A stretch of DNA of 61,952 nt, counting the filler, from Asterionella formosa (lineage: Eukaryota), in NCBI GenBank assembly GCA_002256025.1. It is 7 parts of 7 records of this genome, joined end to end, with 100 filler letters (N's around TTAATTAATTAA, not from the genome) between each part and the next. Parts side by side here need not be neighbours in the genome. Positions count along the whole stretch, not along the records: positions 35,498 to 44,260 come from NKIB01011678.1; 6 more parts are not named here. One strand, written 5' to 3'. Each line of letters starts with the position of its first letter. Positions within the stretch are counted from its first letter, which is position 1. The translations under genes were made by a program, and so were the position numbers. Positions 35,498 through 47,131 of the stretch are shown here, one piece after another. The notes below the pieces were generated by a model. That model had not been told where the DNA came from, did no database searches, and was given only the letters and a program-made list of their open reading frames with translations.

Positions 35498-36229
35498 GAT
35501 TCTTCTTGAATTGAATTATTTTATGGCTGCTGTGAGCAATGATTCATGCAACAAAGAAATAAGAATAATAAAATAGGAAGTGCATCATCAATGGGATTGA
35601 TCACAATGCAATCACTACATACCTGTATGTACCAGTATACCGTAGTCTTTTATTATATTTGTAGAACAACACATGATATGCACCAGGTAGACTACCGCTA
35701 TACCGGTAGTAGAATCTAATATTGTATGTACTCTACCGCGGGTACCAGGCACCAGGTACCTACTCTAACTCAGTACTGAGTACTCCGTACTACCAGGTAC
35801 CCTGGTACCAGGTAGTAGCTAAATTGATGTTTTGGACTAAATATGCTAGTTATGAACATGATTATTCAAGCAATCACGTTGAAGTGATTCATTTACCTGT
35901 AAATGACCCATTTACCTGTAAACAAAACAATCACAAATGGCATAGCAGTTAGGAGTAGCTGTTTTCTCGTGTCTCCACAAACATGTGCATCACATCAGAC
36001 TCAGCAAAATTTAGCAGTGTGCACTTCAATCTCAAACAACAATGACAAATCGACATGAAGAACCCAACAGTTGGGCTGGCATTGACACACTTGATTCAGA
36101 ATAGGAGGTACAAGATTAACAGAGCATTCTGTTTCTTGCAGCAGTTTTATTTTCATTTGTGGATTCCTTTGGAAACTTGAAGCCATTGTGATTAGCATCA
36201 GCAAAATTGGAGCATCAATGACTTGACTG

Positions 36230-37410
36230 AAATGATCATGTCACAAAGCTTCTCCTTGAGCGAGAATAGGTTTCATTGTGAATATATTATGTACTTTCAA
36301 GTGTTCAATCACTGACTGGAATTACTTTGACATTCCATCACAGTTAATACTGTCAAATCAAATGCAAGTTCCAGTATATACAGCACAAATCAGCATATTT
36401 ATCTCAAGTTGATCCTCGCCATTGTCCTTTGCTTGCTTGTTAATGGGGACGATGCTTGTTAATGGGGACGAAAAGCCTCATTGACATTTGCCATGATGTT
36501 CATGGAATTTCTCATCAATCTGTTTCTGCAATCACTCAAATGTTCCTTGATGCTGTGAACTGCCTCCTGCAGAGAATTATCAATTAGATTCCCTGCAACA
36601 AACAACAAACAGGCAGAAACAAGCAGTGATGAATGAATTTCTTGAAAAAAGCGAGCAACAACTATTTTGCGGATGCATGCATTGGTGCTATATATGGGTA
36701 TTTACAGCCTATCAGCCACCAAACCAAGAAAAAGGGATTGTGATGGCTTCCCTCAAGCATATTGTTTGGTCTGGGCATTATATGTCATATGTATTAAATG
36801 TTCAAGCTATTTGTGACAGTAATTGTTGTTTCCCATACTTTGGTGTGGTGGCACCAGGAAAATGTTCAAATCAGAAGACATTTGAAAGAACATAGCTTTT
36901 TTCAGATTATATTCAACCTTCAATTAGGATAATTCATAGTAGCTGATCCTGCTTATACATCGACTAACGAACAAATCCTCTGTCCTTTTGTTGGAAGTCA
37001 AAGAGAATCATCAAACAAGCAAGGATTCATAGAACTATTTCCTTTTACAACGACGCAGTAGTATTATTGAGATGATGTTTGGGTTCTTGCTTACCAATAA
37101 ATGGAGAATCCTAAGGAAATCCTTGTCCTTTAGCCTGAAGAAATCAGTTGGTTTTCTTTGTGCTTGTGGCAGCTTACACAGATTTTTATTTACTCAGCAT
37201 GGATGATGATAAAAAGAAGGAATTTGGTAATGGTTTGAATTTTTGAATCTTTGGAGTTTTTTGATGCAATACCCAATCCTCCTCTTGGGTGGGCTACTAT
37301 CTTCCAACTGTCAGGAAATTGGATGTAGTACAAGGTACTTTACAAATTCGACAATCAAGATCTTAGGGTTGGACGAAGAACTATTTGCGCCAATGACATG
37401 AACTGACAGA
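36230..37410 (+). mobile_element. Second PIF/Harbinger (HARBI1-like, DDE_Tnp_4) transposase pseudogene
   Basis: Fragments read DICHDVHGIS, FCGC..A, SGHYMSYVLNVQAICD...FGVVAPGKCSNQKTF, IVADPAYT, ILCPFVGSQ, NYFL..R..IEMMFG and NKWRIL. Many stops, and a 19-bp internal duplication at 36434-36471. Confidence 0.85.
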
Positions 37411-38378
37411 AATAAGAGTAATGTAAAATAAGAAAAATAACAGAAAGAAATTTGATTCAAAAGTAGTAACAAATAAAAGCAGAAATATAATTGCTAACAT
37501 CATTTTTAGATGTATTCTCAGCTGTTTGTGTGAGAGCTATAGAATTCTTTGTCAGTTCATCCATGGCTTCAAAAATGATGCAGCATAACTGACATTCGCT
37601 TGATACTCTTTACCAAAACACTTTGTGACACTTCATTGCTTGCTAATTCAGCCTGAGATTCCTTTAACTTTTCTCAGTACATACTTACAACATCCATTAG
37701 TTTCTTCTTTTGTTTTACAGCAAGCATGGGTGTTTGTGATATTCCTCATTTGTGCTTTGAGAAGAAAGTTTCATTTTTGTACGGCATTCCTTTGCTTTTG
37801 AAAATTCTATCAAAACTTCGACAACTTGTTTTGTTCTTTCAAGCTCATGCCATGTTTTCTTGAATTTTTGGTGGGAGCTTGGCAAATTCAAGTTCATCCT
37901 CTTCATGAACATGTATTAGACTGTCTCTAGCAACACCATCACTCAAACTTGGCACTATGTAGGCCCATTAATGTGTCACCTCTTGAAGCCATAATTAATA
38001 TTAAAAACTATAAGACTGTTTTGAGTGTTTTGAGTGAAGGGGAAGTAAAATTGATAAAATTGTCATGTTGACCAGAAACTTGTTATTATTGAAACAGATC
38101 GAAAAATGCGCATTTAGAAGATCCATGAACTCTAGAAAATTTTTGCTATCGAACATAACAAAACTGAGGGGATAATTATCATCAATTCCATGGTATTCAA
38201 ACTGGTTGTGTTTGAAGGCCATGGATCCAATTGTATCATCATCTATGTTCATCATGTACTAGGTACTATCCAATAATTTGTCCCAAACTGTTTTATGGGG
38301 AATCATCCTTGCATCCAGCTCACTCAACAATAGTTGGTTTATTCCCAAGATCCAAATCATCTTGACGATGACCACGAA

Positions 38379-38775
38379 AATTGACAAGAAACTCATGGAG
38401 ATAGACAAAAATGACCGAAATCCATCACCCAACGCAAGGCATCATTAAATTGATAAAGGCTTTTTTGAAGATGTCCATGCATCCAAATCAGATCCAAACA
38501 GGCCTTTGTTGGCGCACCGCACAAACACAATATGTAAAAAACTATAAGCAGATGAAAGAACCACATTAATTGGCAAGAAACTCATGGAGATAGACCAAAA
38601 TGACCAATATCCATCCAACAGCATCATTGAATTGAGAACATAAGGCTTTTGACGATGTCCACGCATCCAAATCACATCCAAAAAGACCTTTTCCGTCCCA
38701 CCGTCCCTACAAAGTATACAAATCGCTACAAGCAGATGAAAGAACCACAAGAATTGACATTAAACTCATGGAGAT
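38379..38775 (+). repeat. Tandem repeat of about 187 bp, two copies plus a partial third
   Basis: AATTG(A/G)CA..AAACTCATGGAGAT recurs at about 38379, 38568 and 38752. Shared downstream blocks are GATGTCCA.GCATCCAAATCA.ATCCAAA and AAGCAGATGAAAGAACCACA. Confidence 0.88.
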
Positions 38776-39844
38776 CTTGCAAAACGTTTTTCCCAACTAA
38801 AGAGATGACACGCAGATGTTTGCTTGCCATTGCTACTGATATAGAATTGTTGGAAGCCAAAAACAGAGGAAATTTCGTTATGTCTCGCAATCACCAAAGC
38901 AGTCAATGAAATGAAGGGTATACTCCCATGGCTGACGGTTGTTAAAGTAAGTCAAGAACTACCAAATCAAGAAAACAAAAATGCGATTCCACAACTAGAT
39001 GTTGCTTTTGTTCATAATCCTAGCAGTCACCAGCATAATGAATCACAGATAAATGAAAAATCTGATTTTTCAATTGATGGAATTAATGAGGGGATAAATT
39101 GTTTACTGTGGCATCAGACTGGAGGCCACAAACTCTAAGTGCCCACCAAAAGGATGCTCATTTCACTATCCCCAGGGACTAGTGGTGAAATTAATAAGGG
39201 GAGTGCAGCATACAGGTTTTGAGAATATTCACATATTTGTTATCTTCTCTGCCATATAAGGTATTGGGACTACCGTAGATGTTTAATGCACTGTGAAAGT
39301 TGGATATCGACAAAATGTAAAGAAGAATGGAATTGGTCTAATTGATTTCAACGGTTGTAACTATTTCAGGTATTCAAAGATTGCTCACTATGCCATTCAG
39401 AAGGTAGAACATCCTCTGTCGCTCATATGCCACTTCTTCGGTGGCGCCTTTGGTGATCAGCTGCTGGTATAAATCTCCTTGCAGGATTTTTTGGTCTCGT
39501 TGCGATGATGGTGGCACAGATGGAGGACGAATGTGTTGTCGAGCCATCATTGTAGATACATAAGGTCGTCCTTTGGATTCGTGCATCTGTTCAAGGGACC
39601 TGTGTGACGACATAGTGGATCCTTGGGACATGCTTCCTAAAGATCTTGCGCCATCGAGGGTTGGGGTCGACTGATACGAAAAATGTTGATTTTCGCAGGA
39701 AGTTTGTGAATGAGACTGATTGCCGGATCGCTCCAGATGGCCAAGTGAGCTATCGGAGTTGCAATAAGATGAATTGGACATGATATTTGGACGATGTTAG
39801 ATAAGAGATGGGTCTGAAGTTGTTTGTCGGCAGTCTATGTTTCG

Positions 39845-40470
39845 TTCTTGTCGATTATTGTGAGATTTCTTCTGTACCGCCCGTGCTCGTAATATTGCTT
39901 CACCATTTTGATGCTCTGACGCTGGTTTTGCACGTGGTTTAAAACTATCGCGGTTATTAAATTTTTGTTAGCGAAACAGTCAAAGACTCTACCAGTAGCC
40001 TAGTCGTCTAGTGTACATAAATTATGTATGATCATACTATAACCCTAATTATGACTAAATACTTTGCTGGCGTTTGTCAAGAGAAAGCCTTCACTTTTCA
40101 TCTACTAAAAAAAAAATTTGAATGCAGTTTTCAGAATCCGTCTCAGATGCACCGGCACTTTTCTTTGTTGTCAATAATTGTGAGATCTTTCTTTTGTACC
40201 AGGTACCCTGGTACCGTACTACAGGTATTGCTTCCTCGCTCTGATGGTGTGATGCTGGTTTTGAACGTGGTCGTGGTTGAAAACTGCTCCTACCGGTAGC
40301 TATATACCGGTAATCGGTTTAACAATCGGATCACGATTATGCTATGACCATAATTATGACTACTTAATTTGTCGTATGTCATGAAATAGGATGACTAGGC
40401 TGTAGAAACGACATCTACTCAAATATATGTAAAGTATGCAGTTTTCAGAAAAGGCCCTCAGACACCAAGT
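39845..40470 (+). repeat. Diverged tandem duplication of about 320 bp
   Basis: The ordered blocks ATTGTGAGAT..TGTACC, TATTGCTTC, GCTGGTTTTG.ACGTGGT, TAATTATGACTA, ATCTACT and ATGCAGTTTTCAGAA occur in both 39845-40164 and 40165-40470. Confidence 0.85.
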
Positions 40471-40828
40471 ACTGATACTTGTATGACTAATTACTAGGGC
40501 TAAAACTTATCGTTGACACAAATACACAGCTTTTGGTCGGTTAGTCGTGCAATCTGATGTACAGTGTCGGCTATCTTAACACCAAATAGTTGTACCGGTA
40601 TTGTATTTCAAATACAAATACATTGGTATCGCTAGAATGGAAACCAAAAAATATTTCCCCCCTTTTCGAAGACAAATATACATTGTATATACATACTTTT
40701 CATCAGCACTCTCCTTGTCAATGAATACTCATCTTCATTGACAAAGATTACATTGCCTGTTCAAATCTCATTGTCTTGTCGCTTGCTTGTATGAACAACA
40801 CAAGAACTGATTTGAATTGTTAACAGGA

Positions 40829-43090
40829 TGGCTGTTCAAAGGGAATATTGTGCCAGCTGATCAATTCATGCTGTGCAACAGGCGCAACAATTGCATCAGA
40901 CACAACAGCCAGTGCAAGTGCCAAAATTCCCAATTTCCGAATAGGTTTCCCTTCGGCTTTTGTTGTTGTTGCAGCTCAGTTGAATGACATGTCCTCCATG
41001 TCTTCTTCTATGCTGTCAGACCAATTTCCATTGACGCTTAGTACTGTCCCAGCAGCCAAGCCTACTGAAAATGATTTCATTGATAAGTATGATTTGGATG
41101 GAAATGATAATGGCTACTCATTATCAGAATTTTTTCACTTCCTTGGTGGAAACATCGCCCCTGAACATTGGCTAGCCTGCAAAGCTGTTTTGGTCTTTCA
41201 TGCTGGCTCGAAAACCAGCAATCTTGCATCTATGAACAAAATAGCAAAAGAGATGGCTTGTCTATTGGCACCTTAAGCAGGCAATTGCAGCATTAGAATC
41301 TACGCATTTTTTGGTTGAATCCCGGAAATATTTTGCTTGCTCCTTTAAGAAAAAGGATGAACCAATGACCTCTGAAGCTCTTTACCAATACGATTTGGAT
41401 TCAAGGAGCAAGATGAGGTGTGCTGTTATCCCTTTGTTGGCAAGGGCTTCCATGACACATGTAATGACATGCTGATTAAGGAGTTCAGAAAGGAATTGAC
41501 CTTGAACAGCAAGTTGAGCGTCATCCCTCAGAAAATCGAAAACAAGCTCCCTCCCCAATTCTGGGAATACAAGAGCCCATGGTATCTTACATTGACAATT
41601 AAAAAATTTCGAAGGGACCCACAGTTGACACCCAATGTTGTAGAGGTGCTTGGCGATGCAAGCAACATTCCACTGTCTCGAGCACCAGCTCGAAAGTGTG
41701 AAGATCAGAAACTTCGTCAGCAGAAGTATGAAGATGATGAAGATAAATGTGTGGATCGCAAATCTAGGAAAATCAAGCATGAAAATACCTTGAGTAAACA
41801 AAGCATGTTGGGAAAGCTACATGCAGCAAAAGCTTTGTAGGAGACTGCTAATGTGTTGCGTCAACAGGGCCAACCCCTAAATTTTCTGGGGTAAAAATTA
41901 GGTTGCCCCAGGAAGCCAGTGTATCCTTTTGTGTTTCCTTCTTCGCCCAATATTCTATCCAGAATAATGGCATCACAAGTTCCGGTGACGCAGAAAATTG
42001 CATGGTGAGTCCGCAAGTCCTACTCAGCTGCAATCGATGCTGAAATGCAGCCAAAACAGCGTACCACTTCAGAATATCACCCCATTTGATCCTGGTGAAA
42101 CACATAAAAACGATTTTCTAGTTGCATTTCACCATCCTGAACATTATCTACATGTTCACTTCCTTCTCTCCATAAAGCTTCCTGGCTAGGTTGACTCTCC
42201 ATGAGTGACATATTCTTTGTGGAGCAAGTGAACCAGTTTCTCTCTGATTTCATGGATTTTAATTCCTGAAATGCTGGTGTGATGCAATATCGAGCAGCTG
42301 AGAAGATGGCTCCTCCACTATTGCAAGAGGATGCGTTATACAGTCCAAAAGTTCAGTATTGTGGCTTGATGTCATAATAACCAATGCTGGCTTGTTGTCA
42401 CTTTATATGTGTATTGGTGGAGGAGAAGAAATGAAGTGTGCCAAGCCCTCCTTTGAATCTTCGCTTTTCATCATTGGCTCAAAGGCAACTCCATTGCGGC
42501 CATGCTCATAGTCCTTCAGAGCGAATATTGACTTGATGCAAAGGTAAACCTTCCAGGATTGATAGGGAACAGGAATTCCGACGTTTTCTTTCTTGGCTTG
42601 GCAAAGGATGACTATCAGAATAGGGGTTCCATATTCAGTACTTCAGATCTCTCAGAGTAAAGGTTCCAATTTTAGTACTTTGGAGGCCACATGAACCTCT
42701 TTCATCAGGACATTCATTTTCGACGGGTTTTGAAAGGCAAGCTTGTAGCTGCAGCAGTGTGGCACAGCAAGCAGTAGTGTAATGAACAATGAATTATGAT
42801 AGGATTTTTTTGCTTCTTGGTGCTGTGCAATGGCGAGCCTCAGCCCTGAAATAGCCCATTCACACATGACACTTAGGTAATTTTCATCAAAGTGCATAAA
42901 TATAGATTCCATCAGGGTGATGACAATCTGTGTATAATGCCACGAGAAAACAACTACCAGGAAAAAATGGCTGTTTGTCCAATATTACCCTCAAATGATC
43001 AAACTTCACTCCAAGTTCAACCTAGAAGTGCTATGGCTGGATGCAATTTTTGGGGCCACCGGGTAGACCATGTAGGCCTAGCATTAGCAT
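40829..43090. pseudogene. Two convergent decayed coding remnants (+ about 40829-41900; - about 41900-43090), probably transposon-derived
   Basis: Protein-like ORF fragments 40848-41276 and 41418-41840 (+) and 42652-42912 (-) are broken by stops and frameshifts. The sequence is CpG-poor. No diagnostic motif recognised. Confidence 0.35.
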
Positions 43091-44260
43091 AAACCCTAAA
43101 CCTATGGTATATAATATTTTGCGCCTGGATTGGCATGTTATAATCACATCCACCATGTTGTTATTATTCTGTTGCTTTACTCAACAATAGAACATCCTCC
43201 CATGCCGCTTCAAATACCTTTCTTTCCTTCATGAGTAGCACTACTATTAAACACCGGAAGCGGCACGGGATGACACAATTGGAGTTGAAACTGTACAGGA
43301 ATGTCTCAAATAAGATCATATAGTAGTTGCAATGAAGATACAACAACAATTTCACTTCCATCGCTGTGCAATGGACTTCGATTTCATGTTCATCATGAAT
43401 GAATGTAACGACGACAACAACGAGATCCCGGATGCATGTGTACATAAACTTAATTCACATGTTTGTTATTTTTATAGAACATTTTACTTAAGCTAATATT
43501 ATGTTTTACTGGTAGCCAGAATTATTTTGTACCGGTAGCTACGATGGCTACCCTATGTAGTTTCATGATGTATCCAGCCATATGTAGGGATACCGTGTTA
43601 AATTATAAACTGGGAATGAGCTGAAATACCGGCCTACTGTCCGTAAATTTCTACGAAAATCAGCGTAAGTGTCCGGTAGTTATCTGATGTTGACGGCTCC
43701 AACCCACGAACCGTTATTATAAATCACGGTTCTCGTGTCTCCGTGTGAGCCAACGACGACTCGATATGGAGTCAAGCGGCCCGTTTACCTTGTTGTGGGG
43801 CAATAGCAAATTACATGCACGGGACTAATAACAATACCGGCATACTTGATGGCTCAACTCAGGCTTTCGCGACACCAAATGGGGGTCATGCAAAGAACGG
43901 CGTACGTTTAGAAATAGTTCTGTCACGCTGCACTTTAGGAAGCATTTTGAAAGAAACCCAAGAGGACTAAAGATACAGTATATATTTCATCAATGTACAT
44001 ACCGTTTATGTTTATGTACTATGGTACCTGGTACGTGGAAGCACAAACAACGGCGCATGGCTATGCTGCCATTGAAAATTCATTTAGCTGGCGGTAACTA
44101 GCGCTACCTGATGCTGGTACTTTGTGCACTGTACCTGCATCTACATTCTTCAACGGCCGATGACGAGGAGGGGAACACGGATTGCACGCTTACGTTCCCA
44201 TTGCTATCTCTTATGTATACGTCATATCAGCTATCAGGTGTCACACTTTACTCTCGTATA

Positions 44261-45884: not shown

Positions 45885-47131
45885 TGCTCTTCCCTTCCCT
45901 CAGCTTTTCAGTCAATTCTTATTGAATCAAACGAGTTTCATACCAAAAATAGAATTGATTTCACATATTATGTTTCAAAGTAGTAAGAAGAAATTTAAGG
46001 AGTATACTTGCAATTAAATTCAACAAAATATGTGCATACTTCTCACATGAAAAGCTTGGCGTGAAATGAACAGCATCCGTGTCTAATTCAAGCATGATTT
46101 TCTCATTAGTTTGGGATCAAACGCACAATTATATTCCACGACTCATTTTTAATTATTAAATACCGGTGGATGGCATTACTATGTAGCAACCCATCGTCCG
46201 GATGATAGGATAATATCTCGCTGGCTCGATTCAGGGATCGTCCAGACTTGCAATCAATCATCACTTTAAGTAGCTGAAGGACGCCGTTTGTGTTCTTAGA
46301 TTGTTGTACCCATGAATCTGGTACTCCGGGGTACCTGGTGAGCGATCTCGCTCAACTACAGACACACCTATAGGGATAGGTTTACATAGATATCTCAGAA
46401 CTCTATCAGGAGCGAGAAAACTCGACTAACACCTATTTGAATACTTTAGCGCCAACCTAGGAGATCGAGTTGCACACAAGCAAGGATTAACTAATAAGCT
46501 CATATATTCAACAAATAATAATACTTCTAGTTAGATACTTCACCTGGTAAATGGGGGCGGGAGGGGTCACGATTTTACGGGATATTTTCGTGTGAGAAAG
46601 TCCCGCTGTGGTATAAAAATTGGCAGAACAAAGGAGCGAAATCAGCCATCACGTCATAGTTTAGTAAGTACTATACCGGTAGTAGCGAGGAAATAAAAAT
46701 GGTACATGATACTGTACATGGTACCCTGGTACCAGGTACTAGACGATATGAAACACACAGGTTCATTCGTGTCACCTTATTTTTTTAGCAACGACCTGAA
46801 CGGCTGGCTCGAATCGAAAAATATAGCATCATATCAAAGCAGTGTACTTAGACCAACATTTTGCACGACCTATCAAACGTCACACCCACGAGCAAAAATG
46901 AAAGAAAGCGAGTTTTTCAACTTTTGCTTTATAAAGAATATAAATACCGGTATACTGTTTAAATATATTATTCTTGGAGACTACCGAACAAGAATATATG
47001 ATGGCTGTGTGTGGAACAACAATCACATGGTAAAGCAATGTCTTCAAAAATCAAGCAACGAAGTCAAAGCTCATAATTCTCACCAAATATTGTTCAACAT
47101 ATTTTTTAGTAAACACCAATCAACGAAAATC

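What the first reader, a model, noticed from the sequence alone, without database searches (positions are those of the whole stretch)
39845..40470. Tandem duplicate in which one copy has palindromes at two sites
Seen: copy 1 has TCTGTACC-GCCCGTGCTCGTAA-TATTGCTT, while copy 2 has TTTGTACC-AGGTACCCTGGTACCGTACTACAGG-TATTGCTT (40201-40225). Copy 1 has AAAACTATCGCGGTTATT, while copy 2 has AAAACTGCTCC-TACCGGTAGCTATATACCGGTA-ATCGGTT (40291-40312). The first gain sits on a pre-existing GTACC. Inference: partial sites seed the addition of GGTA/TACC modules, as expected from fold-back or templated repair synthesis.
Basis: partly seen in the sequence, partly recalled or inferred. Interest (0 to 1): 0.72.

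Follow-up and report, generated by a model that had tools for sequence, protein, structure and literature searches.

The report
Transposon scars in an old duplicate
One copy of an old duplicated stretch of non-coding algal DNA has picked up short TA-bounded palindromes that are most likely scars left when two kinds of cut-and-paste jumping genes landed and left, and one kind tends to land beside such scars, so they pile up.

Summary
The ~320-bp tandem duplicate is real (77% identical, old), and copy 2 carries the quoted palindromes. Site 1 is aligned correctly. At site 2, TA versus TACCGGTA segregates among haplotypes, and a recent gain is the simpler reading. Fold-back repair fits both local sequences but fails for the class: 12 of 14 polarised TA>TACCGGTA gains in repeat families had no template within 50 bp, 11 of 14 had no partial seed, and flanks show no extra symmetry. 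The genome holds two TA-inserting pogo-type families. One has CCG tips (154 ends) and a flank profile like that of isolated TACCGGTA. The other has CCA tips (436 ends) and sits at GG|TA in 26 of 35 ends, often against a CC(A/T)GG unit. No excision was observed, and no clean CC(A/T)GG gain was caught. This scan noted the genome-wide scar idea many times on other DNA.

The parts
39828..40136 (+). Copy 1 of an old non-coding tandem duplicate
   Evidence: no third copy found in G000
40153..40450 (+). Copy 2 of the duplicate, 77% identical to copy 1 in aligned columns
39874..39878 (.). GTACC in copy 1, the unexpanded counterpart of site 1
   Evidence: anchor posterior 0.78-0.97
40197..40227 (.). 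Site 1: chain of TA-bounded units (CCAGG, CCCTGG, CCG, C, CAGG), read as stacked scars; CCG and C may be ancestral bases
   Evidence: identical in L002; one substitution each in X5 (40204) and X17 (40225); aligns better to copy 1 with three units taken out; 8-bp-arm hairpin
40291..40298 (.). Site 2a: TACCGGTA; the 6 bases 40291-40296 are a segregating insertion at a TA
   Evidence: absent in L002 and X5 contig 25; present in X2 contig 11 and X3 contig 18
40305..40312 (.). Site 2b: older TACCGGTA, one substitution in L002, intact in X5
39990..39997 (.).
40593..40600 (.). TACCGGTA inside the adjoining repeat; paralogues have a bare TA, so this one is a polarised gain
   Evidence: (table 4)
40492..41872 (+). 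Adjoining dispersed repeat (family A), used as an outgroup set; superfamily not identified
   Evidence: no Pfam match for its two long frames

Best explanation
The duplicate is an old, ordinary tandem duplication in a transposon-rich non-coding stretch. Afterwards copy 2 was hit several times by TA-inserting pogo-type DNA transposons that later excised. Inferred steps: insertion duplicates a TA; excision leaves 2-3 bases of each tip as 3' overhangs; end joining seals them between the two TAs. CCG tips give TA-CCGG-TA (the CG ends can anneal); this is the isolated class, as at site 2 and at 40593. CCA tips give TA-CCA-GG-TA or TA-CC-TGG-TA. This second family prefers G|TA|C and GG|TA|CC, which its own scar supplies, so scars stack into arrays as at site 1, begun at the GTACC that copy 1 retains. 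Shown: the duplicate, the polymorphism, the polarised gains, both element families, their tips and their flank preferences. Inferred: that these elements made these scars, the cut positions, and the order of events at site 1.
For: (1) In 140.5 kb of repeat copies aligned to family consensus, 14 sites went from TA to TA-CCGG-TA (10 exact, 4 with a later or adjacent change), with a fixed core in unrelated flanks. (2) No precise loss in 45 copy-sites at three consensus motifs. (3) Pogo elements (Pfam DDE_1, 93 matches) with TA|CCG...CGG|TA ends; 154 end matches against 2 for the control; nine copies 99.6-100% alike. (4) Flank profile of 285 TACCGGTA flanks against 35 pogo flanks: r=0.54, permutation p=0.0095 with local backgrounds; the TA-C(A/T)G-TA control gives r=0.04. 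(5) A second TA-flanked family with CCAC(C/T)TAAAAACT ends, 436 exact matches against 5 for the control; a 2.9-kb copy carries a broken DDE_1-like frame (ESM Atlas 0.95). Its outer flank is GG|TA in 26 of 35 ends against 13.6% of local TAs (p about 1e-14), and 14 of 35 abut a complete CC(A/T)GG-type unit; the CCG family shows 1 of 48 and 0 of 48. (6) TACCGGTA is mostly isolated (23 of 135 adjoin another unit), TACCAGGTA mostly arrayed (116 of 137), which matches the two preferences. (7) Other scar-like insertions dominate the same alignments: 112 of 141 3-bp insertions are a 2-bp duplication around C or G, 37 of 66 4-bp insertions a 2-bp duplication around GC. (8) Known chemistry: Tc1/mariner footprints are the terminal 2-4 bases between TAs (PMC6943129, passages); the pogo element Passer leaves 0-4 bp (PMC9976928, passages).
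Against: No element was found at either site in any haplotype seen, and no excision was observed. No clean TA>TA-CC(A/T)GG-TA gain appeared in the family alignments (0 against 14), so the array class rests on tips and flanks only. CCAGG is 5 bases, longer than the canonical 2-4; CCAGGG (37-fold enriched) and CAGG need an added or lost base; the expected CCG scar is only 1.5-fold enriched and CCA 0.8-fold. The CAG-tipped pogo family leaves no enriched CAG scar (1.2-fold). CCA-tipped elements could be targeting arrays that arose otherwise, as an LTR element here does. Both local sites are also exact fold-back products. Pfam did not recognise the CCA-family frame and BLASTP to the CCG-family transposase found nothing. 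One consensus motif (family E) is split, absent in 8 of 18 copies, and cannot be polarised.
Confidence: 0.66

Rival explanations
1. Fold-back or short template switching: a nascent strand folds or changes strand at a partial site and copies GGTA/TACC units from nearby.
For: Site 1 has 8-bp arms around a 3-base loop and site 2 has 8-bp arms around a 6-base loop (both z -2.5). In X5 the template motif 2b is intact while 2a is missing, so one switch would give exactly the window allele. 24 of 60 oriented neighbour pairs in arrays are in opposite orientation. Such events are documented (PMC5453318, abstract).
Against: 12 of 14 polarised gains lack a CCGG within 50 bp. Flanks of 207 isolated CCGG and 103 isolated CCAGG units show no symmetry beyond shuffles (6 against 5.4 and 5 against 5.1 with 3 or more symmetric bases). 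The per-TA motif rate at 11-20 nt from a motif (0.028) is like that at 31-50 (0.032) and 51-100 nt (0.022). The centre base is A/T in 254 units and C/G in 20.
Confidence: 0.13
2. The motif-rich state is ancestral: both copies had the motifs, copy 1 decayed, and some haplotypes deleted 6 bases at site 2 between the two TAs.
For: Copy 1 has TACCAGTA followed by GC at about the right distance from the right-hand anchor; posterior up to 0.90 with the motif allele. A generic aligner pairs about 13 of the 14 interior bases of site 1 without calling a gain.
Against: The match vanishes with the motif-free allele (0.00-0.08). Two different haplotypes lack the 6 bases: L002 has 25 private differences, X5 has 7, and they share 7 against the window. 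No precise loss in 45 copy-sites against 14 gains. The site-1 units are intact while the copies differ by 23%.
Confidence: 0.11
3. The CC(A/T)GG arrays are protein-binding or promoter elements that grow by slippage and are kept by selection; mobile elements merely target them.
For: 36 of 60 oriented neighbour pairs share orientation, and 24 of 73 neighbour pairs are identical. Two near-identical contigs differ by three whole units in one array (L020/L021). An LTR element also inserts at CC(A/T)GG. Earlier notes e1-7577216 and e1-7570334 prefer this reading (not tested here genome-wide).
Against: Site 1 holds five unlike units in mixed orientation, lies among broken mobile-element remains with no recognised gene, and takes substitutions in two other haplotypes. 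It does not explain why the tips of the targeting element spell the unit.
Confidence: 0.1

Closest known systems
Tc1/mariner canonical excision footprints (Sleeping Beauty TACAGTA/TACTGTA, PMC6943129; Tc1 TACATA/TATGTA, PMC12632400; passages read)
   Same: TA on both sides, a fixed core that matches element tips, independence from flanking sequence.
   Different: Cores of 4-6 bases drawn from both tips; inferred from natural variation, not from an assay; very high density (264 and 254 distinct sites in about 668 kb held, a transposon-rich sample).
Passer family of the pogo superfamily (PMC9976928, passages read)
   Same: DDE_1-type transposase, 0-4 bp footprints, reported bias to promoter chromatin.
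   Different: The footprint letters are in a figure I could not see; no self-targeting of scars in the passages read.
Repeated Stowaway insertion and excision at one TA in Triticeae beta-amylase (PMC1925063, passages read)
   Same: Several footprint types at one site, and an element inserted next to an earlier footprint.
   Different: One locus there; here a measured family-wide preference (26 of 35 ends at GG|TA) and chains of several units.
Short template-switch mutations (PMC5453318, abstract and outline only)
   Same: Can make hairpins like those at both sites.
   Different: Products depend on local sequence; here the core is constant and usually has no local template.

Membership tests
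Tc1/mariner/pogo excision footprint | Empty site is a single TA; the filled site has TA on both sides of the core | tested here: met
   site 2a against L002 and X5; 14 polarised sites
Tc1/mariner/pogo excision footprint | Core equals the terminal 2-4 bases of a TA-inserting element in the same genome | tested here: inconclusive
   CCGG fits CCG or CCA tips and CCAGG fits CCA+GG, but CCAGG is 5 bases, CCAGGG and CAGG need an extra change, and CCG/CCA cores are hardly enriched
Tc1/mariner/pogo excision footprint | A cognate element with a DDE transposase and TA duplication exists | tested here: met
   CCG family: Pfam DDE_1, both ends in TA. CCA family: TA-flanked inverted ends; transposase relic by ESM Atlas only, not by Pfam
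Tc1/mariner/pogo excision footprint | Scar flanks share the element's target preference | tested here: met
   r=0.54, p=0.0095 for CCGG; G|TA in 67% of isolated CCAGG flanks and 31 of 35 CCA-family ends
Tc1/mariner/pogo excision footprint | An allele with the element at the same site | tested here: inconclusive
   none among the window, L002 and contigs of four runs; the tables were cut
Tc1/mariner/pogo excision footprint | Scar produced by transposase-driven excision | not testable with these tools
   needs an excision assay
Short template switch / fold-back | Inserted bases are the reverse complement of nearby sequence | tested here: not met
   met at these two sites but not for 12 of 14 polarised gains
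Short template switch / fold-back | Symmetry reaches into the flanks, or pairs cluster at hairpin spacing | tested here: not met

The most novel reading that the evidence does not exclude
A pogo-type transposon family whose preferred target (GG-TA-CC) is rebuilt by its own excision scar works as a ratchet that writes GGTACC/CC(A/T)GG arrays into non-coding and gene-upstream DNA, creating landing pads that a retrotransposon also uses. Together with three or more other scar types, excision is the main source of small insertions in this genome. Site 1 is one such array dated to after a duplication.
Probability: 0.45. Interest if true: 0.78.

Novelty: new variant of a known kind. Interest (0 to 1): 0.58.

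Why it matters
Excision scars are usually treated as rare local events. In the repeat copies examined, 3- and 4-base scar-like insertions (207 events) outnumber 1-base insertions (77), and two resident transposon families have the tips and target habits to account for the two most over-represented palindromes. If one family lands on its own scars, a purely mutational loop builds arrays that look like promoter elements, which matters for motif discovery and for reading regulatory evolution in diatoms. It also gives a countable record of past transposition. The duplicate itself is ordinary; its value is as a dated example.

Tried and rejected
Third copy as outgroup: two DNA searches of G000 found only the window and C12645; the tool warns that no match does not show rarity. 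Pattern scan of metagenome contigs: 10 hits, none similar to the contig. C12645 as an allele is assumed from 95% identity over 5.2 kb; a recent segmental duplicate is not excluded. Searches with four other contigs of the window gave repeats but no long allelic partner. Pfam DDE_3 found nothing in G000. Family F (17 pieces) was left out of the insertion count because its consensus covered only 3857 of 6570 bases. My first reading that copy-1 TACCAGTA proves an ancestral motif was dropped. My note that the adjoining repeat is hAT-like was not borne out by the alignment of its ends. Only two longer CCA-family copies were fetched, so target sites with both flanks are known for four elements only. 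PDB sequence search of the CCA-family frame gave no significant match.

Full report
Setting. The window is a string of about 8.77-kb contigs separated by N spacers. The finding lies in G000:C11678 (window 35498-44260), a stretch of broken mobile-element remains with no recognised gene; the only Pfam hit among six frames tested is a weak DDE_Tnp_4 match below cut-off at 36551-36892. Earlier notes of this scan call the organism a freshwater diatom (unchecked); the runs that hold the stretch are mostly labelled freshwater or algal metagenomes.

Observation. The quoted strings are present. Copy 1 (39828-40136) and copy 2 (40153-40450) align with score 136 against a shuffle maximum of 36 and 202 of 261 identical columns. 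A second genome copy, C12645, differs from the window by 156 substitutions and 18 indels over about 5.2 kb, so the duplication is several times older than that split. Copy 1 has TACCAGTA at 39990, so it is not free of the motif family; its homology to site 2 depends on which allele of copy 2 is used (0.07-0.90 against 0.00-0.08) and stays open.

Site 2 is polymorphic. L002 lacks exactly the 6 bases at 40291-40296. Of four runs laid, a contig of X5 spanning 39700-40533 lacks them, contigs of X2 and X3 bridge the place without a gap, and X17 does not cover it. X5 is a third haplotype: 25 differences from the window are private to L002, 7 to X5, and 7 are shared (X5 positions read). One gain on the window lineage explains this; a loss needs two events or an L002+X5 clade (inference). 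A second exact indel of the same six bases lies at 35701. At 40593, in the adjoining repeat, paralogues have a bare TA, so that motif is a gain.

What the class does. I aligned copies of nine repeat families to their consensus (140,514 bases, 6,279 substitutions, 389 distinct insertions, 197 deletions; one further family dropped). From the 5-14-base insertions I picked by eye 14 sites where a consensus TA became TA-CCGG-TA (10 exact, 4 with a later or adjacent change). Three of the 14 were TAC/GTA sites, against 373 of 933 consensus TAs; none was TACC/GGTA, against 74 of 933. One further gain sat on an existing motif. Twelve of the 14 had no CCGG within 50 bases. There was no precise loss in 45 copy-sites at three consensus motifs; a fourth is absent from 8 of 18 copies and cannot be polarised. 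Flanks of 207 isolated CCGG and 103 isolated CCAGG units are no more symmetric than shuffled pairs, and motif pairs show broad clustering without a peak at 11-20 bases (the 6-10 bin is higher, 12 of 194). So seeding and fold-back are not how the isolated class arises.

Two candidate sources. G000 has 93 Pfam DDE_1 matches. Full elements end in TA|CCG...CGG|TA; one end pattern has 154 matches against 2 for the reversed control, and nine copies are 99.6-100% alike over 1.95 kb. The flank profile of TACCGGTA resembles that of these insertions (35 against 285 flanks, r=0.54, p=0.0095; control core C(A/T)G r=0.04; CC(A/T)GG r=0.33, p=0.07). A scan for TA-flanked inverted ends turned up a second family with CCAC(C/T)TAAAAACT tips: 436 exact ends against 5, short copies of 746-977 bases and a 2.9-kb copy with a broken frame that the ESM Atlas places with DDE_1 clusters (0.95) but that Pfam, BLASTP and a PDB search do not recognise. 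Its outer flank is GG|TA in 26 of 35 distinct ends held, against 87 of 639 TAs within 200 bases, and 14 of 35 abut a whole CC(A/T)GG-type unit; for the CCG family the figures are 1 of 48 and 0 of 48. These 35 are a small part of the 436 ends. This fits the split in the motifs: 23 of 135 TACCGGTA but 116 of 137 TACCAGGTA adjoin another unit (counted before the CCA loci were fetched). Neither family has an end in the window.

Mechanism. Established: Tc1/mariner transposases cut the non-transferred strand a few bases inside the element, leaving 3' overhangs that end joining turns into footprints of terminal bases between two TAs (PMC6943129, passages; Tc1 in PMC12632400, passages; Passer 0-4 bp in PMC9976928, passages, figure not seen). 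Inferred: CCG overhangs anneal through CG and give CCGG; CCA tips give CCA+GG or CC+TGG; the extra G of CCAGGG would need slippage during fill-in. Because the CCA family favours GG|TA|CC, each scar offers new targets and arrays grow. At site 1, taking out three units (21 bases) makes copy 2 align to copy 1 with one 10-base gap and one mismatch in the core, score 32.3 against 25.0 (the choice of units was made after seeing the data). The array is identical in L002 and has one substitution each in X5 and X17. A rough check by hand: 2 scars per 156 substitutions or 14 per 6,279, with 4.77e-10 substitutions per site per generation measured in another diatom (PMC6604790, passages), needs about 1e-6 to 5e-6 excisions per element per generation for 77 elements, which is not a high rate (inference).

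Against. No element at either site, no excision seen, and no clean CC(A/T)GG gain in the family alignments. CCG and CCA cores are hardly enriched (1.5 and 0.8-fold), nor is the CAG core of a third pogo family (1.2-fold) (this sample includes loci chosen by CCA ends). Arrays also change by whole blocks, as slippage would do (L020/L021; 36 same-orientation against 24 opposite neighbours). An LTR element inserts at CC(A/T)GG too, so the CCA family might only be using arrays that have another origin.

Known and new. Footprints are known, and so is re-insertion beside a footprint at one plant locus (PMC1925063, passages). I found no paper on these motifs as scars in diatoms, or on a family-wide scar-targeting loop, in searches (listings only; the library lacks most subscription papers, and no supplements were read). 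This scan has recorded the scar idea, a ratchet idea and the pogo elements on other pieces of this genome; a look-up with one CCA-family end and a word look-up returned nothing, though some notes mention a MITE with matching tips that may be the same family. Verdict: a real but ordinary duplicate that dates several insertions; new variant of a known kind; interest 0.58.

Noticed in passing
Repeat families in G000 loci: 3-base insertions (141) outnumber 1-base insertions (77); 112 are a duplicated dinucleotide of any kind around C or G, and 37 of 66 4-base insertions are a duplicated dinucleotide around GC. They look like scars of an element with a 2-bp target duplication; source not sought. 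The GC form was noted earlier (e1-7565080).
   Followed up: partly
L033:5132-6651 (opposite window 40681): The second genome copy carries an insertion that starts with TG and holds a 419-aa open frame with a CxxCxxxxHxxxxC knuckle; LTR-retrotransposon-like, not searched against families.
   Followed up: partly
window 46337-46545: Solo LTR-like repeat flanked by CCTGG on both sides; many of 20 paralogues abut CC(A/T)GG in arrays.
   Followed up: partly
L050, about 1480-1530 (family A copy in C5176): A chain of about six TA-bounded units lies at a position where the family consensus has one TA: a whole array gained after that copy inserted. It fell outside the filtered count.
   Followed up: no
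L020/L021 (C11484, C11110): Two near-identical short contigs differ by three whole units (20 bases) in one array.
   Followed up: no
L266 right end; G000:C2608:1109-1136: CCA-family ends lie next to each other, separated by TA-TGG-TA in L266 and overlapping at a TA in C2608: elements inserted at the end of another copy.
   Followed up: no
window 38371-38775: A second, 184-bp tandem repeat (2.2 copies, 78% matches) in the same contig, present in both genome copies.
   Followed up: no
window 36551-37206: Fragments of a probable PIF/Harbinger transposase (PF13359 E 0.019, below cut-off).
   Followed up: partly
window 39957-39967: 11-base insertion in copy 1 present in the window and, by the gap count, in an X3 contig; absent in L002, X2, X5 and X17.
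   Followed up: no
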